Source: Naegleria gruberi (lineage: Eukaryota). From it: a stretch of 64,000 nucleotides of DNA. Positions 5,866-40,172 of this stretch are shown piece after piece. Numbering within the stretch: the first letter of the stretch is position 1; every line of letters begins with the position of its first letter. Below the pieces are notes generated by a model. The model made no database searches and was not told the origin of the DNA. It saw nothing but the letters and a program-made list of their open reading frames with translations. The stretch is taken from assembly GCA_000004985.1 (NCBI GenBank), contig GG738849.1. One strand, given 5' to 3'. Made by a program: the position numbers and the translations under genes.

Positions 5866-8119
5866 ATGGAGCAATTGTTACCAATTATTAACAAAATCCA
5901 GGATGTTTTTGCAACTGTTGGATTGAATGACTCGATCGATCTACCACAAATTGCCGTCGTTGGTAGTCAAAGTTCAGGAAAATCCTCTGTATTGGAAAAT
6001 GTTGTCGGAAGAGATTTTTTACCAAGAGGTTCAGGAATTGTTACTAGAAGGTAATGTTTGTTTTACTATTATTTCTAATTTAGTTTAGACCTCTGATTTT
6101 GCAATTAATAACAATAGCATCAAAATATAAGGGTATGTGTATATTTTGGAAAATTCAACAACAACAATTTTAATAGCCGTTGAGGAAGTAACCGAACAAC
6201 AAAAACAACAAGAAGAATACGGTGAATTTTTGCACTTGCCAAACAAGAAGTTTTATAACTTTTCTGAAATCAGAGAGGAAATTGTGAGAGAAACCGATAG
6301 AATTACTGGATCAAATAAGAATATTAGTTCTGCTCCTATCAATTTGAAAATCTATTCACCATAGTATGTTTTGTTTAATTTCATCATTTCAATAACACAA
6401 ACGTGATCGGAAATAGTGTTCTCAATTTGACATTGATTGACTTGCCAGGTATCACAAAGGTTCCTGTTGGTGACCAACCAAAGGACATTGAACAACAAAT
6501 CAGAAAGATGATTCTTCAATTTATTTCTAAACCAACATGTATTATTTTGGCTGTTACTGCAGCAAATACCGATCTTGCTAACTCTGATGCTTTAAAGTTG
6601 GCAAAAGAAGTAGATAGAACTGGAGATCGTACTTTGGGTGTATTGACAAAAGTGGATATTATGGATAAAGGTGTCGATTGTATGGATATTATTAGAGGAG
6701 AAGTTTTACCACTCAAAATGGGATACATTGGTGTTATCAACAGATCTCAAAATGATATTAATACTAACAAATCAATCAGAGATGCATTGAAAGATGAAGA
6801 TGCATTCTTTAGAAACCATCCATCATATAGAAGTTATGCCAACAATATGGGAACAAAGTATTTGGCAAAAACACTCAATAAGATTTTGCTCAATCACATC
6901 AATAATGTTCTCCCAGAGCTTAGAAACAAAATTGGAAATCTCTTGACTCAATGCCAACAAAGAATGAAAGAATATGGAAGTGGTCCAATCAGCGATGATT
7001 CTCCAGGTGCTCTCTTATTGCAACTTTTAACTGACTATACAACTGAATATATTGATTCTATTGATGGAAGAAATACTGAAATTATCAAGATGAATGAACT
7101 TTTCGGAGGTGCTCTTATCAATAATATTTTTGTTTCCAAATATTATCCACAATTATCAGAACTTGAAGCTTGTGAAAATTTGACAGATTTTGATATCAAG
7201 ACAGCTATTAAGAATGCTAAGGGTTCAAAGACTTCTCTTTTCGTTCCTGAAGCAGCTTTTGAAATTCTTGTAAGAAGACAAGTTAAGCTTCTTGAAGATC
7301 CTAGCATTCAATGTGTAGATAGAGTTTTTGAGGAATTGATGAATATTGAAGATTTTTGTGAAAAGAAACTTATTCGTTTTCCAAATCTTAAGGAACGTGT
7401 CAAGGAATTTATCATTCAATTATGGAAAGGTTATACCATTGAACTTAAGGAATTTATTAGAAATATGATTCGTATTGAATTGGCTTATATTAATACTAAT
7501 CACCCAGACTTTATGGGAAGTAGTAAGAATGTATTCAGCCTCATGATGCCAAATAAGAATCGTGTAAACCGTGTTCAAAGTGGTGACCATTTACAACAAC
7601 AGCAACAACAACAACATCAAATGAGACCAAACATGCACCAAATTCGTAGTCAAAATCCAATGCCATCTGAAGATGATATGTACGATTACAATCCAAACCA
7701 AGGTAACACAAGGTCTGGATTACAACCTCCTGTCAATTCTATGGGACTTATGGGTGGCTCATTAGGAGAAAGAGAAAATCAAGAAGTTGAAGTCATTCGT
7801 GCTCTTCTCACAGCCTATTTTGATAATGTTGTCAGAAAGTAAGTTTTTCAATTTATTTCAAAATCTCACCAATGGTTTTTTCAAATTTAGGAAACTTGCT
7901 GATCAAGTTCCAAAGTCTATTATGGCTTTCCTTGTTATCAAGACCAAGAGCAATTTACAAAGTGAACTCATCAAAGAGCTTTACAAACCAGAACTTTTTG
8001 AAACACTCTTAAAGGAAAATGATGCTATTGCTCAAAAGAGAAAGCAAACTCAAAAAATGCTCAAAGCCCTCACGAAAGCTCAAAATGCCATCAATGAAAT
8101 TAAGGGTATTAGACTTTAA
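5866..8119 (+). CDS. Dynamin-related GTPase (DymA/Drp1-like, no PH domain or proline-rich domain), 5 exons
   Basis: Exons are 5866..6050, 6089..6132, 6177..6363, 6417..7838 and 7891..8119, with introns of 38, 44, 53 and 52 nt. The protein has a [10 protein letters not shown]-loop, [13 protein letters not shown], the dynamin signature LTLIDLPG, a middle domain and a C-terminal GED. A Q/N-rich insert (about 7585..7790) sits between the middle domain and the GED. Confidence 0.85.
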
Positions 8120-13437: not shown

Positions 13438-15349
13438 ATGAAAAAGTCACCAGCTATTGCCGAAGCGAAAGCACCAAGTCCCTATCTAACAACACCGTAT
13501 AAGGCACCTGCAACAACTAAAAAGACTGCAACCTCTTCATCATCACCTATTCCAACAACAACTAATGGTAGCAAACAATCTAAATCACCAGTTAAAACTA
13601 AGCAGAATCAACAACCAGAAAATAATGGCGTTAGTGCTCAGTTAAGCGAAAAGAAAGCTTCACCCTTAATTTCCAAAACGGCAAGCAATTCTACCCCAAA
13701 GAAGACAGCCACCACCACCACAACAGATAATCCCAATACTCCTACAAAGCAAAATAGCTCTCCAAATCACACTTCTCCTTCATCTATTGAAAAATCCAAA
13801 GGAAAGGAATCATCAACTCCAACTAAGACTACATCAACAAAAACTGCCACCTCTAAAACGACACCAACCTCTACAGGGAAATCTACTACTACCGTAACTA
13901 AATCTTCAGCAATTATCAAGTCTTCCTCCACCAAGTCCTCATCGAATAAGAATGCAGTTTTTAAGAAAATACCCTCAGATGTTGTTCTCATTATCTTGGA
14001 TTATTATGGAGGAATTTTCAAAAAGTCTACTATTACCGAAAAGGATGGCAAGATTGAGTATTCTTCTTTCATCAAAAAGTTTTATGGGCGATTTAGTGTT
14101 GATAAATCGGTGAAGTTCATGTTTAGATTCATTGAGGGGGATCATCAAGCTATCAACAATATGAAGGAAAGTATTGAACTAGTTAGATTGGCATTTGTAG
14201 GCTCCTCAAAAGTAAGAATTGCTGGCTCTGTGGCTGATTATCTTCTTAATTGTCCCAACAAGGCAGATCCCAGTTTAGCAATGCGAAAACTTGAACTATT
14301 TGCTTCATCACTTGGTGATGATTGTAAAAAAGTTAGTGAAGTGGATTTTGTTGGAAGAGAAACATTTTCAGAGTTGTGTTCTCTATTTTTCAAAACATTT
14401 ACAAATTTGGAAATCATAAAAGGTGGAAGACATATGAGAAAGAGAAGGGATAACGACTATGATACCAGATTTCATGCATTTGATACCTCCATGGCTAGTG
14501 CTCTGGAGGTTACAGGTCCAAATGTAAAGGAAATTAAATGGTTAGGCTCTACACTGCCAAAAAACCTGGCCTCCTTCACACCTAACTTGGAAACGATTCA
14601 CATTGGTAAGTTATTTTAACTTGGAATTATTCTCATTCTAAATATCAATATCAGCATGCCCTCAATCAATAATCGCTCACGCAGACCTATTGTGTGAATG
14701 GAAGAATCTCAAATCAATTTCCCACATCAAGCATGAAGTTTATGTTGACTATAATCCACCTCCAGTAAATGTAACTGAATATAATAGAGTTTTTACAACG
14801 TTTAGCAATATGGGGAGTTTACAAGAGTTGGTAATTGGGGAAGACAATAGAATTCCTCTCGATTGTTTCAGACTTTTAGAGAATAATCAGACGTTAACCA
14901 AGTTGAACCTAGATTTTTGTTTTCTGGGTAATGACTTTATGAAGATTATAGGAACCATGACAAATCTCAAACATTTCAGTGCAAGTGGTGGATCAATGAC
15001 ATCGTCATCTCTACAAAATCTACTGTCCATTAAACAATTGCAAGAATTAAAATTGGATCAGTGTGATAAAATAACAGAAGTTGGGTGTGAGACATTATGC
15101 AAGTTAACAACTCTGAGGTTATTGGAATTCCCTAATACTAATCTAAGAGATAAGGGTGCATGCATGTTGGTGTCCCTGAAAAATCTGAGGCACTTGGATC
15201 TTTCATGTTCTCTAATAACTAATACTGCAGTGGAAACCATTGTAAAGGGTTGCAGGAGGCTCACTTATCTAAATGTAACCAGTTGTAAATATGTATTCAT
15301 GGATAAATTCAAAGAGGATGTAAAGAAAAAGATTAAAAAATTCCACTGA
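13438..15349 (+). CDS. F-box / leucine-rich-repeat protein with S/T/K-rich N-terminal region, 2 exons
   Basis: Exon 1 is 13438..14605 with donor G|GTAAGT. Exon 2 is 14655..15349; an alternative in-frame acceptor at 14685 is also possible. The F-box-like segment is IPSDVVLIILDYYGG. The C-terminal LRR-cap repeats are LRHLDLSCSLITNTAVETIVKGCRRLTYLNVTSC. Confidence 0.6.
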
Positions 15350-27124: not shown

Positions 27125-28248
27125 ATGTTACCTTCCTTAAACGAATTGATTAAAAAGTTTGACGAATTTAAAGACAAACAAAGGTTGAATACTGATATTC
27201 ATCAGAATTTGAAACCAATAGATGTTAAACCAATAGTAGATGTTGCTTCTCCTGCATGTTACCCTTCATCATCCCATACTCAAAGAGAACCACCCATCAT
27301 TCATTCTAAATATTACTCTTCAACAACATGTAATTCTCTAAGATCTTCATCTAATATTTACCAACCATCACCACACAATCACCCTCATCAGCTCCATCAT
27401 TACCCTAGTCATCTTCAGCAAACCTCATTCACCAAAGTAATGCATGTGGATCATGATCCAAGCTATTTTGAATCTCTTCATTATCATACTGGAGGTCATG
27501 AAACGATAATTAGCAATAATAGTCTTGCACAAATTGTTGAGCCACCGCCACATGCTCTTAGTGACATGCCACATGCCCTTCCTCCAACTTTGGAAATGTG
27601 TCCAACAACTTCTAGTAATAATGCATCTTCGTCGATATGTAATAAGCAAACTTGTTTCCTTCCTTCTTCATCTCAAAGTACATTCACGACGGATGCAGCA
27701 AATAATAGATCAAATAGCAATAGTCCAAAAAATAGTTCTTCACAGAATAGTTCCACAAACTCTTTCCAGTCCTCGTTTAATGTAAATAAGAAAATTCCAA
27801 AAAGCAAAATTTCCAAAAAATCAAAAGAACCCATTCAATTCAAAGCATTTTCCATCTCATTAGATACATCTAAAATCAAATTTATCAATGAGCAACATCA
27901 GAAAATTGGGATTAATGATGGATCATGGACTGAGCAGGAACATGCCAATTTCATTCGAGGTTTAAATGAATGTGGAAAAGGAAAATGGAGAGAAATTGCA
28001 GAGGGTTATGTTAAGACAAGGTAAGTTGTCCAAGTTACCTGCTCGTGTTAATCGAATCGTAAATCCCTAATTATAACTATATTTCATGTTAATTGAATCT
28101 TATTTCTTTCCCCTTAGAACAAGGTAAGTGATTTCATTTTAATCGAATCCTAATTCTATCCTAATTCTTCCTTAGAACTCAAGTTGCTTCGCATGCTCGT
28201 AAATATTTGAAAATGCTTGCAAGGAAAACTAAATCTTCAATTAGATAA
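27125..28248 (+). CDS. SHAQKYF-class MYB-related protein with long low-complexity N-terminus, 3 exons including a 6-nt micro-exon
   Basis: Exon 1 is 27125..28020; the track start at 27095 is TTG. A 97-nt intron follows, then the micro-exon 28118..28123 (AACAAG), a 52-nt intron and exon 3 at 28176..28248. The Myb helix reads GKGKWREIAEGYVKTRTRTQVASHARKYL, which matches the plant/amoebozoan SHAQKYF consensus in length only when the micro-exon is included. Confidence 0.65.
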
Positions 28249-28409
28249 CCATATTGATTATACTTCTTATAATATTCAATAATCCCCGTTCATTCAAGAA
28301 GAATAGAGGAGCCAACCTTCTTTTATAAATCTTAATTCGCACAATATTTGGCAACTTCGCCATCAAAGAATCGGATTATACGTATATTTTGTTGGAAGTG
28401 GATAAAACC

Positions 28410-29258
28410 TTATTTGTTTTTCTCCACTTCAAATATAGATCTCTCTCTCTTTTTACAGCCCACCTTAATCCACTCTAAATCACTCAAAAACCATTCTCTG
28501 TGCTGCTTGACTTCATCTAATGAAATGTTTTTTGTATTCCTATAAAGTGAGTGTATCATCATAGGATTTCCAATATTATTGTCCTTGGTATGGCTTTGTT
28601 GTGTGTTGGAATCTGCAGCACTCTGAGGAGAAGGAACAAATGAAGATGTTTTTAGAATCTTGTTAAGCCAATCCAAATTTGGAGTGGGCAACGCGTCGTT
28701 CATTGGTTCGTTAGTGGTATTAACACCCTCTACAATTGAAGATTTACAAAACTTGTTTGGGTTTACATAAATCAATTGTTTGCAATATTTTTCCTTAATT
28801 TGTTCATAGTCAAAATTTTGCTTTGGTCCATAATGTGAAATTTTCATTACTCTTTCTTCAATATCATGAATGGATTGTTCTCCAAAAATTGTAGACCAAG
28901 TTTTTAATAATTTCAAGTATTTAATTTGAATATTCAAATCTATTTGTACTTTGAATGAGTAAAAGAACAAGTCCGAAATTCCAGCACTAAATTCATCAAT
29001 ATATTCTCCTCCAATATTTTTAATAATTGAATCTAATAAATAGAGACTCGGAAGTTTCTCCTCTGCACTTGCTGTTTTAATTCTTGTAGAAATAACTTTT
29101 GCAATAGATTTACAATATTTAATTTCCTCCCTAGCAATACTAGTCAATTTTTTAATATCCATTAACGAATTGGTTTTTAAATCCTTCTGTAAGGAGAGAG
29201 AATATTTTTGTACAATACTACCTTCCGATGATGATTGGGGCTTGTTGAATTGTTTCAT
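28410..29258 (-). CDS. CID (CTD-interacting domain) protein, Pcf11-like N-terminal domain (282 aa)
   Basis: The segment AEEKLPSLYLLDSIIKNIGGEYIDEFSAGISDLF...LKLLKTWSTIFG matches the Pcf11 CID core (KLPVMYLMDSIVKNVGREY...). The protein is shorter than canonical Pcf11. Confidence 0.6.
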   Translation of the reverse strand: MKQFNKPQSSSEGSIVQKYSLSLQKDLKTNSLMDIKKLTSIAREEIKYCKSIAKVISTRIKTASAEEKLPSLYLLDSIIKNIGGEYIDEFSAGISDLFFYSFKVQIDLNIQIKYLKLLKTWSTIFGEQSIHDIEERVMKISHYGPKQNFDYEQIKEKYCKQLIYVNPNKFCKSSIVEGVNTTNEPMNDALPTPNLDWLNKILKTSSFVPSPQSAADSNTQQSHTKDNNIGNPMMIHSLYRNTKNISLDEVKQHREWFLSDLEWIKVGCKKRERSIFEVEKNK

Positions 29259-29419: not shown

Positions 29420-29800
29420 ATGAGTAACAAACAAGCCCTCCTCTCAGATCAACTTTATGATTCAAGCAGCTCGGACGATGATCTTGATTTCAAGCAGGGT
29501 TCCTACACTCCCCATAACATACTCTCATCGAATCCATATAGTAATAATAGTACATCAACAGCTGCCGCAGTAACATCCTCATCATCGAGTGGATATGTGA
29601 GCAAAGATCAGAGGCCACTTTTAGGACTTTCGAGCGAATCTGTACAGCAGCCTTCCGAATCAATCTATCAACGAGTTTCAAACCTAATTCCTCTTTTATG
29701 TGTTTTGAATGCATTTGCTTCGTTATTCAAGACAATTTTAGGTCGATTCTCCTCTCCTCAACAATCACAAGAAGAAAGTGATGGTTATTTAAATGTTTAA
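29420..29800 (+). CDS. Small hypothetical protein (126 aa), Ser-rich with C-terminal hydrophobic segment
   Basis: The ORF starts at an ATG and sits in a gap between well-supported genes. I see no homology. It is overlapped by an antisense ORF of similar size. Confidence 0.3.
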   Translation: MSNKQALLSDQLYDSSSSDDDLDFKQGSYTPHNILSSNPYSNNSTSTAAAVTSSSSSGYVSKDQRPLLGLSSESVQQPSESIYQRVSNLIPLLCVLNAFASLFKTILGRFSSPQQSQEESDGYLNV

Positions 29801-37289: not shown

Positions 37290-40172
37290 ATGGGGATTTT
37301 TAAACCTCATTCTTCATCAGGCAACACGATAATACTGATAGGAGATGAAAGTTATTGGATTCCAACAATAAGATTGTGGTTGATGCCACTTCAATTACCA
37401 CCAGCACCACTTGAAAAAATGAACAGAAAACCAACCCTAAGAAAACGGGCCAAAAACGTCTCGTACTATGAAGGAAATAATCAAGTTATTTTAGAAGAAG
37501 ACGAAGAAGAAAATGAAGACGAAGTTGAAGAGGAAGAGGAGGAAGATGAAGCTGTTGTGGAGTTTGATGAAGAGGATGATGATGAAGAGATGGAGGCCTA
37601 TGTAGATTCTACAAAAGAGGAACAGATCAACAATACTAGTAGCAATAGTAGTAATAGTAGTGAATCTGATGAGGAACAAGTTCCGAAAAGAAAACAACCA
37701 TCACGGTCAAGAAATCAACCTAAAAGCCAATCCAAAAATCAATCAAAAGTTTCCAGTACTAGAAGAGGTTCATCTTCAAAGAAGATGGAAATATCAACCA
37801 CAACAAGTGAAAGTGACAATAACTATGAACCAACTAAAAAAACTAGGCAAACTCCAAAGAAGAAAATTACAAAATCCACCACCTCTGCCTCTAGAGGTTC
37901 GTCATCTTCTAATCGTTCCAAATCACCTTCTACTCAGACATCCTCAAGAAAGAGGAGAAAGGAGTCCGAAAGTGAGGAGCTCTCTGATAATGACGAAGAA
38001 ACCTATGATAGTGATAGTTTCATTGTAGACGATGAAAATGAATCAAGTGAGGAAAATAATGATGAGGAAGATAGTGAAGGTACTACAAAGAAGAGGAAAA
38101 CAAAAAAGACTTCAAAAACTTCTAGGAAATCGAGTAGCAATACTACTTCTAATGGCTCCTCGAATAGATCTCAATCAACAAGCCGATCTAAAACTGTCAA
38201 CTCCAAGAAGAAGAAAAAGTCACCCAACACTGTTCAGAATTTATTTGAAATATTTGCGATTGAGAAGGATACGATCGCAGAACAGAATAGGCAACGATCC
38301 AAGCTCATTAATGAATCCGAAAGTGAAGAAGAGGAAGAAGCCTACTCAACCAGTGATAATGAGGCACAAAAACAACAGAATAAGAAAACCTTTGCCGACT
38401 TGGAATTGGCACCTATTGTAGAACATGATGGACTCATTAATCCATATAACAAAAATAGGTGCGAACAAATTCCTCTTCCTCAACACAAACATTTGGATGA
38501 TGAACAATACGATAATTACATGAATGAGAATAATAACGAGTAAGTAGTTCTTTTCAATATGGAAAGATATTCTAACTTGAAATTTAGTCATTCTCTCGCA
38601 GTAGGAGTGAAGCTAACTGGAATGGACGAGTATGAAAGCTTAATACAAAGAAGAGTCAGACAAAGAAAGGAAGATGAAGGAATAGAGGAAGAGGAGGATG
38701 AAGTGCCAGCCAATTTACAGGATGAAAGTTACATATCCGAGCTCATAAAAATGTCTGTCGGAAAGCAAGCAAGTTACAAAATCAAACCATTCAAAGGAGG
38801 CCACTATATTAATTGTGACTTGAGATATTTTACCTTGTCCTCACTGGGTAAATTTGATGTAATATTAATTGATCCACCTTGGAGAGTTATTCAGAGTAGA
38901 CCACAGGAGGCCATGATGTTCAGTAATACCAACTTTAAACTAAATTATAACACTCTCTCATACGAGGAAATTATGGATATTAATGTGGGATCATTGTGTG
39001 ATCAGGGGTTCTGTTTCATGTGGGTTCTCAATTCATCTCTTCAATTTGGACTCAATTTACTGAATCATTGGGGATTTTCCTATATTGACAAGATTACCTG
39101 GATCAAAAAGACAAAGAATGATCAAATATTTGCAGGTACAGGTTATTATTTCCTTCACTCAACTGAATTACTGCTAGTTGGCGTAAAGCATGGCTCAACA
39201 AAGAAAAATGGGCAAAAGTTGCAATATATTTCCAAAATTACCAACGATATTCTCTTCTCAAAAGTTGGTATCCAATCCCAAAAACCAAACGAAGTATACG
39301 AGATTATCGAAAGCATGGTACCAGGAGCTAGAAAGATTGAAATATTTGCAAGAAATCACAACATTAGAAAAGGGTGGCTGAGTATTGGTAATAGATTGGG
39401 TGAAGCATTTGATAAGGAAATGACAAGCTATTCATGTCACAAGTGTGATAAGAATTTATTCTCACCTGACTTTATGGGAACTGATAAGAATATTAAGAGG
39501 TTTAAGAGCTGTAAAAATCCAAAGGTTAATCTCTGTGAAAAATGTTCATCTAAATTTTCAGAAGATTATGGGCCATATTTTATATTTGAGAATACTTGCA
39601 CAGAACCAATTTTCCACGATTGGTATTCTTGTGATGTTTGTGAGATGTATCCTATTTGTGGAGCTAGGTTTTCATGTAAAGATTGTTCAGGAGATTTTGA
39701 TGTTTGTGAGGATTGTTTTGATAAGGTCATGACAAAAGATTCACATGAACATAGATCAGATTCATTTACTGCAATTGAATATCCAGATCCTGGCTGTGGT
39801 TATGCAGTTCATGTTGATAAGAAATGTAGCTCTTGTCTGGCTTGTCCTATAATTGGTGAAAGATTTATGTGTACGGAGTGTAAGGATGTTAACTTATGTA
39901 GAAAGTGTTTCTTCCTTCAAAAAGAGCCCAAGACACACAAATGCACTCACGAAATTTCAATGATACCCGAGCCAAGACATGCCCACCAAAAACTCAAATG
40001 TGCTGGTTGTGGAACAGTGGGACTCCAAGCACCAATCCACAAATGCAAAACATGCATGTCTTTCATCCTTTGTAATAAGTGCTATGATGTCCATGAAACA
40101 TGTTATGACTCACTCAAGTTGGACAAGTTTACAACACACAAACAATTCCACTCATTTATGAGAATGAAATAA
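37290..40172 (+). CDS. MT-A70-family N6-adenine methyltransferase with acidic/Ser-rich N-terminal region and C-terminal array of ZZ-type zinc fingers, 2 exons (about 945 aa)
   Basis: Exon 1 is 37290..38539 with donor GA|GTAAGT. A 48-nt intron with a TTCTAAC branch motif follows. Exon 2 is 38588..40172. The catalytic core reads VILIDPPWRV...CFMWV...LLLVGVKHG...EIFARNHNIRKGW. At least five Cys-rich ZZ/ZnF units follow (CDVCEMYPICGARFSCKDCSGDFDVCEDCF and others). Confidence 0.75.

What the first reader, a model, noticed from the sequence alone, without database searches (positions are those of the whole stretch)
28021..28175. 6-nt micro-exon (AACAAG) flanked by two sequence-related introns in the SHAQKYF Myb gene
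The two introns are GTAAGT...taatcgaatc...CCTTAG (97 nt) and GTAAGT...taatcgaatc...CCTTAG (52 nt). They share their 5' splice site, an internal taatcgaatc block and their 3' end. Only AACAAG separates them. Including the 6 nt gives GYVKTRTRTQVASHARKYL, the same length as the conserved ...TTRTPTQVASHAQKYF helix. Skipping it gives the equally in-frame KTR-TQV. So this is either a tandem intron duplication that created a micro-exon, or an alternative-splicing module that changes helix-3 spacing of the DNA-binding domain.
Basis: partly seen in the sequence, partly recalled or inferred. Interest (0 to 1): 0.55.

Follow-up and report, generated by a model that had tools for sequence, protein, structure and literature searches.

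The report
Six-base exon between two copied introns
In a Naegleria gruberi Myb transcription-factor gene, a real 6-base exon sits between two short introns that are copies of each other and absent from every relative examined, so this looks like a recent intron gain by intron copying, and the public gene model misses it.

Summary
The window is Naegleria gruberi. The gene (27125-28248, +) has exon 1, a 97-nt intron (28021-28117), the 6-nt exon AACAAG (28118-28123), a 52-nt intron (28124-28175) and a short last exon.

Including the 6 nt gives KTRTRTQVASHARKYL. Every relative examined has this spacing, and so does the solved SHAQKYF Myb structure 6nvz. The micro-exon therefore belongs to the functional mRNA.

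The two introns are homologous. With the splice-site hexamers removed, their cores score 21, against 10.4±1.8 for shuffles (0 of 5000 reach 21). Intron 2's two best matches in the 64 kb both lie in intron 1.

Neither intron position is occupied in N. fowleri, N. lovaniensis, a Logan Naegleria-like contig, two metagenomic heteroloboseans, Willaertia or Acrasis. Several of these carry introns elsewhere in the domain. Both introns split identical sites (ACAAG|AAC) in a tandem Thr-Arg codon repeat.

Best reading: a lineage-specific intron gain, followed by copying of that intron into the neighbouring identical site. A plain tandem duplication would add 6 coding nt, so it does not fit without a second event. 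Regulated skipping is untested and disfavoured. No transcript data could be reached. The public model (…KTRTSPP) lacks the recognition helix.

The parts
27125..28020 (+). Exon 1 of the Myb gene. It runs from the ATG to the first two bases (AG) of the first Arg codon of TRTRT. It encodes the low-complexity N-terminal region and helices 1-2 of the Myb domain.
   Evidence: Uninterrupted 298 codons plus 2 nt. 100% identical to N. gruberi 'predicted protein' P0001. The N-terminus MLPSLNEL resembles those of the Naegleria homologues. Pfam PF00249 hit.
28021..28117 (+). Intron 1: 97 nt, phase 2, GTAAGT…pyrimidine tract…CCTTAG. It contains two copies of the TCRTGTTAATYGAATC block.
   Evidence: Retaining it gives an immediate in-frame TAA (AGG TAA). 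The position is unoccupied in all relatives whose DNA was read.
28118..28123 (+). Micro-exon AACAAG. It supplies the last base of Arg-1, the Thr codon ACA, and the first two bases of Arg-2.
   Evidence: Including it restores KTRTRTQVASHA, identical in length and residues to the N. fowleri and N. lovaniensis homologues. The Pfam Myb score is 45.1 bits with it and 39.8 bits without it. The alignment to solved structure 6nvz is gap-free through TRTRT.
28124..28175 (+). Intron 2: 52 nt, phase 2, GTAAGT…CCTTAG. It is a copy of intron 1 lacking about 53 internal nt and carrying a small internal tandem repeat.
   Evidence: Alignment, repeat family D1, statistics. Its length is typical of the plausible introns in this window (42-64 nt).
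28176..28248 (+). Last exon: the final base of Arg-2, then TQVASHARKYLKMLARKTKSSIR and the stop TAA at 28246-28248. This is the recognition helix of the Myb domain.
   Evidence: Translation; conservation of TQVASHA.KY.
28043..28065 (+). Repeat block A (TCGTGTTAATCGAATCGTAAATC) in intron 1.
   Evidence: Family D2. 83% identical to block C. BLAST E = 0.011 against intron 2.
28081..28111 (+). Repeat block B (ATTTCATGTTAATTGAATCTTATTTCTTTCC) at the 3' end of intron 1.
   Evidence: Family D1. 26/31 identical to block C. BLAST E = 2e-4.
28131..28161 (+). Repeat block C (ATTTCATTTTAATCGAATCCTAATTCTATCC) in intron 2.
28147..28172 (+). 11-nt tandem repeat (ATCCTAATTCT, 2.5 copies) inside intron 2. It accounts for the only indel in the alignment with the 3' part of intron 1.
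   Evidence: Tandem Repeats Finder; alignment.
28011..28026 (+). First copy of the junction repeat TTAAGACAAG|GTAAGT. The second copy, TTAGAACAAG|GTAAGT, lies at 28114-28129. Both introns split the same 8-nt context, ACAAG|AAC.
   Evidence: Family D3 (spacing 103 nt, 14/16 identical); sequence.

Best explanation
This is a genuine 6-nt micro-exon, included in the functional mRNA of a Naegleria gruberi single-repeat SHAQKYF-type Myb gene. Two homologous short U2-type introns flank it.

The coding sequence holds a tandem Thr-Arg codon repeat (ACA AGA ACA AGA). This gives two identical proto-splice sites, ACAAG|A, six bases apart. One intron was gained at one of these sites in the N. gruberi lineage. 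A copy of it was then placed into the neighbouring identical site without changing the coding length.

The copying could have gone two ways. It could have been RNA-mediated: intron transposition by reverse splicing into the adjacent identical junction, then reverse transcription and recombination. Or it could have been DNA-level: templated repair or template switching guided by the ACAAG and AAC microhomologies. Afterwards the copies diverged by small internal tandem duplications and deletions: a second copy of the TTAATYGAATC block about 41 nt upstream in intron 1, and an 11-nt tandem repeat in intron 2.

Because the 3' splice site of intron 1 and the 5' splice site of intron 2 are only 6 nt apart, the two introns are most likely removed one after the other.

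Shown: the anatomy; the homology of the introns; the absence of both positions in relatives; the invariant protein spacing. Inferred: constitutive inclusion; the direction (gain, not loss); the copying mechanism; the order of splicing.
For: Organism and gene: (P0001, 100% identity, N. gruberi).

Micro-exon is real:
- Inclusion gives KTRTRTQVASHA, as in N. fowleri and N. lovaniensis.
- Every homologue retrieved that contains this stretch keeps TR-xx-[TS]Q; only the N. gruberi public model P0001 departs, because it diverges there. None has the skipped spacing.
- The alignment to PDB 6nvz is gap-free through TRTRT.
- The Pfam score is higher with inclusion.
- Within 28021-28180, the first AG downstream of intron 1's pyrimidine tract is its own acceptor (read).

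Introns are homologous: (0/5000 shuffles; other window introns score 6-12 against 21).

Lineage-specific positions:
- Contiguous coding DNA through TRTR in N. fowleri L001 and N. lovaniensis L002.
- The same in metagenomic L003 and L006.
- The same in Logan contig L010, Willaertia L011 and Acrasis L012.
- L006, Acrasis and Willaertia keep introns elsewhere in the same domain. Their lack of an intron here is therefore not due to wholesale intron purging.
- In the NJ tree the Naegleria genes form a clade (80%) with L003 outside it (78%).

Other points:
- Both sites share the identical context ACAAG|AAC.
- Willaertia has the same ACA AGA ACA AGA repeat without introns. The two identical sites can therefore exist before any intron.
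- Intron 2 (52 nt) is typical of the plausible introns in the window (42-64 nt); 155 nt would be an outlier.
Against: - No transcript evidence could be obtained.
- The window gene's position among the Naegleria paralogues is unresolved (bootstrap 39-57%). A strict orthologue in another species has not been identified, and local synteny with N. fowleri is absent.
- A second N. gruberi paralogue, P0133 (NAEGRDRAFT_73944), has a public model that stops exactly at …KTR. That hints at an intron at the same position there. If so, the first intron may predate the paralogue split and be older than assumed, or it may have spread between paralogues.
- If the introns are recent, the intact micro-exon is not by itself evidence of selection.
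- Only 64 kb of the genome could be searched for further copies of the intron.
Confidence: 0.7

Rival explanations
1. Tandem DNA duplication of the unit 'intron + 6 exon bases' (103 nt) gave a transient TRTRTRT protein. A compensating 6-nt deletion of one Thr-Arg unit then restored the domain length.
For: The junction repeat TTAAGACAAGGTAAGT / TTAGAACAAGGTAAGT has a spacing of 103 nt. The 5 exon bases upstream and 3 downstream are identical at both sites. In N. fowleri, N. lovaniensis, L003, L006 and Acrasis the first Arg codon is CGN, whereas N. gruberi has AGA at both sites, as if the flank had been copied with the intron. Local tandem duplication is evidently active in these introns.
Against: It needs two events, with an intermediate that lengthens the turn before the recognition helix. 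Willaertia has ACA AGA ACA AGA without any intron, and L010 has AGG at the first Arg, so AGR at that codon does not need co-duplication. No trace of a third Thr-Arg unit remains.
Confidence: 0.25
2. Regulated alternative-splicing module. The micro-exon is a cassette, and skipping it (one 155-nt intron, 28021-28175) produces a Myb protein with a shortened turn and altered or abolished DNA binding.
For: Skipping is in frame and uses consensus sites. Exon skipping has been detected in N. gruberi transcriptomes in general (PMC6142364). A 6-nt exon is hard to define, so some skipping is mechanistically plausible.
Against: None of the homologues retrieved has the shortened spacing. Each intron has its own pyrimidine tract and acceptor. 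The plausible introns in this window are 42-64 nt long, which points to intron-definition splicing. Relatives have no intron here at all, so no conserved regulatory module exists. The same paper reports that intron retention exceeded exon skipping in all but one species surveyed (PMC6142364).
Confidence: 0.1
3. Both introns are ancient and were lost independently in all the other lineages. Their similarity reflects shared splicing signals or a functional intronic motif rather than recent copying.
For: Intron loss is common in intron-poor protists. N. gruberi is reported to retain many ancestral intron positions (PMC3488318). A second N. gruberi paralogue model ends at the same residue. The triple TTAATYGAATC block could be a selected cis element.
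Against: It requires at least 4-5 independent double losses, including in lineages that kept other introns in the same domain. A 26/31 match with shared flanks is not expected between ancient, unconstrained introns. The block is absent from the six other plausible introns in the window and is not enriched in the window: 5 matches against 1.9 expected, three of them in this locus. A soybean family member has no intron here.
Confidence: 0.08
4. Both introns are independent insertions of a mobile 'introner'-type element with a preference for the ACAAG|A target.
For: Two related introns sit at identical target sequences. A possible third case lies at the homologous site of paralogue P0133.
Against: There are no further copies in the 64-kb window and no terminal inverted repeats. 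The identical bases flanking each intron are ancestral coding sequence, so they are not evidence of a target-site duplication. No stable RNA structure is predicted (z = +0.7 and +0.5). Naegleria is not mentioned in the main text of the introner survey PMC9860276. At 52-97 nt these would be very small for an element.
Confidence: 0.07

Closest known systems
Intron transposition / propagation of an intron to a new position (indirect evidence reported for Mycosphaerella and Oikopleura; reviewed in PMC3443670)
   Same: A novel intron position is occupied by an intron whose sequence is homologous to another intron. The copy brings ready-made donor, branch and acceptor signals, and the coding sequence is unchanged.
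   Different: Here source and copy lie only 6 nt apart in the same gene, at two identical sites of a codon repeat, and leave a 6-nt exon between them. The RNA-mediated step is not shown, and a DNA-level templated copy explains the data equally well.
Intron gain by tandem genomic duplication (AGGT model; Hellsten et al. 2011 and Gao & Lynch 2009, as cited in PMC3443670; Drosophila cases in PMC2891723)
   Same: Local tandem repetition, duplicated AG|GT junctions, and no change in coding length in the final product.
   Different: In the AGGT model the new intron is made of duplicated exon sequence. Here the intron bodies resemble each other, not the exons, and a plain tandem duplication would add 6 coding bases that are not present.
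Near intron pairs (PMC2891723)
   Same: Two intron positions less than 32 nt apart within one conserved coding region.
   Different: [quoted passage not shown] Here both coexist in one gene.
Very short micro-exons that automatic gene predictors miss
   Same: A coding exon of a few bases is needed to keep a conserved domain intact, and the public gene model misses it.
   Different: Those micro-exons are usually old and conserved in position. This one is delimited by lineage-specific, mutually homologous introns.
SHAQKYF-class single-repeat Myb proteins (PDB 6nvz; plant MYB1R1/KUA1-like proteins)
   Same: Pfam PF00249 hit, the W…W…VKTRT.TQVASHA.KY signature, and the same spacing.
   Different: The motif reads SHARKYL instead of SHAQKYF, a variant shared with N. 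gruberi P0129 and Logan P0130. The long low-complexity N-terminal region is specific to Naegleria.

Membership tests
U2-type GT-AG spliceosomal intron (each of the two) | GT…AG boundaries with a consensus donor and a pyrimidine-rich acceptor region | tested here: met
   GTAAGT…TTATTTCTTTCCCCTTAG and GTAAGT…CCTAATTCTTCCTTAG. The donor is the same as in six other plausible introns of the window.
U2-type GT-AG spliceosomal intron (each of the two) | Removal restores the reading frame and a conserved protein | tested here: met
U2-type GT-AG spliceosomal intron (each of the two) | Spliced junctions observed in RNA | not testable with these tools
RNA-seq exists under PRJEB23822.
Micro-exon | A coding exon of a few nucleotides bounded by an acceptor and a donor, encoding residues conserved in homologues | tested here: met
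   The 6 nt AACAAG encode the Thr and parts of both Arg residues of the TRTR motif, which is kept by all heterolobosean relatives examined.
Alternative cassette exon | Both inclusion and skipping isoforms present in transcripts | not testable with these tools
   No RNA data. Family-wide spacing argues against a functional skipped form.
Intron transposition / intron copy | Significant sequence similarity between the novel intron and another intron | tested here: met
Intron transposition / intron copy | The position is unoccupied in related genes (novel position) | tested here: met
   Seven relatives read at DNA level. Caveat: strict orthology is unresolved.
Intron transposition / intron copy | RNA intermediate (reverse splicing plus reverse transcription) | not testable with these tools
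   Cannot be read from the sequence, and a DNA-level templated copy is equally compatible.
Tandem genomic duplication (AGGT) intron gain | The intron body is derived from duplicated exon sequence | tested here: not met
   The intron bodies match each other and not the flanking exons. The only exon-intron repeat is the junction motif itself.
Introner / introner-like element | Many near-identical copies in introns across the genome | tested here: inconclusive
   No further copy in the 64-kb window. The rest of the genome could not be searched.
Introner / introner-like element | Element hallmarks: terminal inverted repeats and target-site duplication, or a stable predicted RNA structure | tested here: not met
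   No terminal inverted repeats. The fold z-scores of both introns are positive.
SHAQKYF-class Myb domain | Pfam Myb_DNA-binding match above the curated cut-off | tested here: met
   45.1 bits against a cut-off of 24.4.
SHAQKYF-class Myb domain | SHAQKYF motif in the third helix | tested here: inconclusive
   The motif reads SHARKYL, so 5 of 7 positions are kept. The same variant occurs in P0129 and P0130. Best solved relative: 6nvz, 'shaqkyf family'.

The most novel reading that the evidence does not exclude
N. gruberi has, or recently had, an active process that copies a spliceosomal intron into nearby or paralogous sites sharing the same exon-junction sequence. It would have acted once across 6 nt within this gene, and possibly once more into the homologous site of the paralogue NAEGRDRAFT_73944, whose public model stops at the same Arg. 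That would be a traceable case of site-specific intron propagation, by reverse splicing or homology-guided copying, in a discoban protist, with source and copy both preserved.
Probability: 0.2. Interest if true: 0.65.

Novelty: new member of a known kind. Interest (0 to 1): 0.42.

Why it matters
Intron gains whose source sequence can still be identified are rare (PMC3443670). Here both the presumed source and its copy survive side by side, the target sites are identical, and intron-free relatives are available. The locus could therefore help to separate RNA-mediated from DNA-mediated intron copying. It also shows that two introns can coexist 6 nt apart, which a Drosophila study considered very unlikely within one gene (PMC2891723). 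On the practical side, the public N. gruberi model of this transcription factor lacks its DNA-recognition helix because the micro-exon was missed. A paralogue model may have the same defect, which matters for transcription-factor inventories of this organism.

Tried and rejected
Look-ups of the unspliced ORF, P0001 and P0133 were 'not on record'. No other N. gruberi DNA or RNA could be read.
2. Metagenome scan for close relatives with a profile: only one distant locus, L005.
4. Synteny between the window and the N. fowleri, N. lovaniensis, L003 or L010 loci: none beyond the Myb gene.
5. Introner idea: BLAST of both introns against the window found nothing above noise.
6. Structured-RNA or snoRNA idea: the folds are not significant and Rfam gives no hit at E ≤ 1 in 27800-28450.
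7. A hairpin sequestering the donor of intron 1 (28019-28040): -7.8 kcal/mol, z = -1.5, not significant.
8. A ~50-nt tandem duplication of the intron's 3' part plus the exon start as the origin of intron 2: rejected. Like every tandem model it adds 6 coding nt, and it also needs a donor to be created de novo.
9. First Arg codon CGN in relatives against AGA in N. gruberi as proof that the flank was co-duplicated: weakened by Willaertia (AGA AGA without introns) and L010 (AGG).
10. An ancient intron position shared with plants: a soybean family member has no intron in the domain.

Full report
**What is there.** The window is from Naegleria gruberi. The translated gene is 100% identical over its first exon to the N. 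gruberi 'predicted protein' P0001. The gene starts at ATG 27125 and runs uninterrupted for 298 codons plus two bases, to 28020. It is followed by:
- a 97-nt intron, 28021-28117;
- the six bases AACAAG, 28118-28123;
- a 52-nt intron, 28124-28175;
- a last exon ending at TAA 28246-28248.

Joining all three exons gives a 324-aa protein ending …WREIAEGYVKTRTRTQVASHARKYLKMLARKTKSSIR. Leaving out the six bases is also in frame and gives …KTRTQV…. Retaining intron 1 stops translation at once (AGG TAA).

**Is the micro-exon real?** Yes, by comparative evidence.
- The closest homologues in N. fowleri (P0002) and N. lovaniensis (P0003) read …KTRTRTQVASHAQKYF, the same length as the inclusion form.
- Every homologue retrieved that contains this stretch keeps two residues plus Thr/Ser between 'TR' and 'QV'. 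The only departure is the N. gruberi public model P0001, which diverges there. None shows the shortened spacing of the skipped form.
- The solved SHAQKYF-family structure 6nvz aligns through this stretch without a gap.
- The Pfam Myb score falls from 45.1 to 39.8 bits if the six bases are skipped.
- From general knowledge of the Myb fold, these residues form the turn before, and the first turn of, the DNA-recognition helix. A two-residue deletion there should be damaging. This last point is an inference.

The public model P0001 departs from this structure. After KTRT it continues with SPP, which maps about 1.3 kb downstream at 29430-29441, and it lacks the recognition helix altogether.

**Are the introns related beyond chance?** Yes. 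The shared GTAAGT means nothing, because six other plausible introns in the window begin the same way. The evidence lies elsewhere.
- With six bases trimmed from each end, the intron cores give a local alignment score of 21. Dinucleotide shuffles give 10.4±1.8 (0 of 5000 reach 21), the other window introns give 6-12, and random genomic segments give 7.5±1.7 with a maximum of 17.
- In a BLAST of intron 2 against the whole 64 kb, the two best non-self hits both fall in intron 1 (28081-28111, 84% over 31 nt, E = 2e-4; 28043-28072, E = 0.011).
- Intron 1 therefore carries two copies of a block TCRTGTTAATYGAATC (starting at 28043 and 28084), and intron 2 carries one (starting at 28134).
- Intron 2 aligns with intron 1 as donor, then a 53-nt gap, then the 3' 43 nt. 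The only other indel is an 11-nt tandem repeat inside intron 2.
- The junctions themselves repeat at a spacing of 103 nt (TTAAGACAAG|GTAAGT and TTAGAACAAG|GTAAGT). Both introns interrupt exactly the same 8-nt context, ACAAG|AAC, in phase 2 of an Arg codon.

No further copy of the intron sequence exists in the window. Neither intron is predicted to fold stably, and Rfam finds nothing.

**Relatives.** DNA was read for seven related genes. All are uninterrupted through the Thr-Arg-Thr-Arg codons.

| Locus | Source | Codons at K/L-T-R-T-R-T/V |
|---|---|---|
| L001 | N. fowleri | AAA ACT CGA ACG AGA ACT |
| L002 | N. lovaniensis | AAG ACT CGA ACG AGA ACA |
| L003 | metagenomic contig | AAG ACC CGC ACC AGA ACC |
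| L006 | metagenomic contig | AAA ACA CGA ACA AGG ACA |
| L010 | Logan contig, Naegleria-like | CTA ACT AGG ACG AGA ACC |
| L011 | Willaertia magna | AAA ACA AGA ACA AGA GTA |
| L012 | Acrasis kona | AAA ACA CGA ACA CGA ACA |

Several of these genes do carry introns elsewhere in the same domain. L006 and Acrasis have them at GIN|DG (GKN|DG in Acrasis) and at SHAQ|K. Two Willaertia genes have one at SH|AQ. Their lack of an intron at the Thr-Arg sites is therefore not a by-product of general intron removal. Metagenomic proteins P0136, P0137, P0138, P0147 and P0153 also read straight through TRTR. I take this to mean contiguous ORFs, since they come from JGI/IMG metagenome gene calls.

An NJ tree on 79 columns places the six Naegleria-type genes in one clade (80%), with L003 outside it (78%) and the remaining heteroloboseans further out. 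Relationships inside the Naegleria clade are not resolved.

**A complication.** The profile search showed that N. gruberi has at least three genes of this subfamily:
- the window gene;
- P0133 (NAEGRDRAFT_73944);
- P0129 (NAEGRDRAFT_53145).

N. fowleri P0002 is slightly closer to P0133 (78%) than to the window gene (71%). It may therefore be the orthologue of P0133 and not of the window gene. The window gene shares its SHARKYL motif and its MLPSL N-terminus with P0129 and P0130.

The public model of P0133 ends exactly at …KYVKTR, the residue at which intron 1 begins in the window gene. That is what an AG|GTAA donor would produce. This suggests, but does not show, an intron at the homologous site in a second N. 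gruberi paralogue. Its DNA could not be reached.

The pattern is thus: introns at these sites only in N. gruberi genes, and none in any other species. This still favours gain in the N. gruberi lineage over four or more independent losses. It leaves open whether the first gain preceded a gene duplication or spread between paralogues.

**How it most likely arose.** The intron-free Willaertia gene shows that a tandem ACA AGA ACA AGA repeat, and so two identical proto-splice sites ACAAG|A six bases apart, can exist without introns.

Any simple tandem duplication or unequal exchange that copies an intron together with its exon flank adds six coding bases and gives TRTRTRT. The N. gruberi protein has the canonical length. 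Two routes remain.
- The second intron was copied into the neighbouring identical site without its flank. This could be intron transposition by reverse splicing, or DNA repair or template switching guided by the 5-nt and 3-nt microhomologies.
- A tandem duplication was followed by a compensating 6-nt deletion.

I favour the first route (roughly 0.5 against 0.25) but cannot separate them. The argument that the first Arg codon is CGN in most relatives and AGA only in N. gruberi would favour co-duplication of the flank, but Willaertia and L010 weaken it. After copying, the introns diverged by small internal tandem duplications. This framework follows the catalogue of intron-gain mechanisms in PMC3443670.

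**How it most likely works.** Each intron has its own donor, pyrimidine tract and acceptor. The first AG downstream of intron 1's tract is its own acceptor. The plausible introns in this window are 42-64 nt long, so intron 2 is typical and a single 155-nt intron would be unusual.

With only six bases between an acceptor and a donor, both sets of splicing factors can hardly sit there at once. I therefore infer stepwise removal, after which the micro-exon is part of a normal-sized exon. Occasional skipping would give an in-frame product that is probably defective. Nothing in the data suggests that skipping is regulated, but it is untested.

**Comparison with what is known.** This is an instance of known phenomena: micro-exons missed by gene predictors, and novel introns homologous to another intron (reported for Oikopleura and Mycosphaerella according to PMC3443670). 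It differs from the AGGT tandem-duplication model because the intron bodies do not derive from exon sequence. It is also a counter-example to the expectation from Drosophila that introns less than 32 nt apart do not coexist in one gene (PMC2891723). The main text of the introner survey does not mention Naegleria (PMC9860276).

**Verdict.** The micro-exon is real and almost certainly included in the functional mRNA. The two introns are copies of one another and lineage-specific. The exact copying mechanism and the splicing pattern remain to be shown, with public RNA-seq (PRJEB23822) and the rest of the N. gruberi genome. Interest is moderate: a clean, traceable case within a known category, plus a correction to the public annotation.

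Noticed in passing
window 29430-29441, and P0001: The public N. gruberi model P0001 (303 aa) ends …KTRTSPP. The tail maps about 1.3 kb downstream, inside the start region of the next + strand ORF (ATG about 29420). The hexamer AACAAG recurs there at 29430-29435. The tail could therefore come from exon 1 joined to a non-canonical acceptor, or from exon 1 plus the micro-exon joined to the AG at 29434-29435. Either way the model lacks the recognition helix.
   Followed up: partly
P0133 (NAEGRDRAFT_73944, XP_002671033.1); not in the window: A second N. gruberi paralogue has a public model that stops exactly at …KYVKTR, the residue where intron 1 starts in the window gene. It probably has an intron, and a truncated annotation, at the same site.
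   Followed up: partly
P0129 (NAEGRDRAFT_53145); not in the window: A third paralogue model (724 aa) reads through TRTRTQVASHARKYL and then continues for about 150 residues that include a CCCH-like motif (CRYHLEGNCRFGRNCRFYH). The related Logan ORF P0130 stops soon after the Myb domain, so the N. gruberi model may be a fusion with a neighbouring gene.
   Followed up: no
L006 4980-5190; L012 1058-1276; L008 and L011: Other heterolobosean members of the family carry introns at GIN|DG (GKN|DG in Acrasis; phase 1) and SHAQ|K (phase 0) in L006 and Acrasis. Two Willaertia genes carry one at SH|AQ (phase 1). The last two positions are 5 nt apart, a possible case of intron sliding or independent gain.
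   Followed up: partly
window 28197-28211 (SHARKYL): The signature motif reads SHARKYL instead of SHAQKYF. The same variant occurs in N. gruberi P0129 and in Logan P0130, which suggests a Naegleria sub-lineage with an altered recognition helix.
   Followed up: partly
window 28019-28040: An inverted repeat AGGTAAGTTG / CAAGTTACCT could pair the donor of intron 1 into a hairpin (-7.8 kcal/mol). It is not significant against shuffles (z = -1.5).
   Followed up: yes
L001/L002 6868-7419; L003 6061-6598: A PAP2_3-like gene lies a few kb downstream of the Myb gene in N. fowleri, N. lovaniensis and metagenomic contig L003, but not near the window gene. The window shares no other gene with those loci.
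   Followed up: partly
window 7839-7890, 14606-14654, 38540-38587 (+); 46916-46853, 32304-32263, 20997-20952 (-): Six plausible short introns were found by an ORF-restoring heuristic. All start with GTAAGT and are 42-64 nt long. They served as a yardstick for intron size and sequence in this genome and were not checked against homologues.
   Followed up: partly
window 28410-29258 (-): A 282-aa ORF on the opposite strand starts about 160 nt beyond the Myb stop codon (convergent arrangement). It was not characterised.
   Followed up: no
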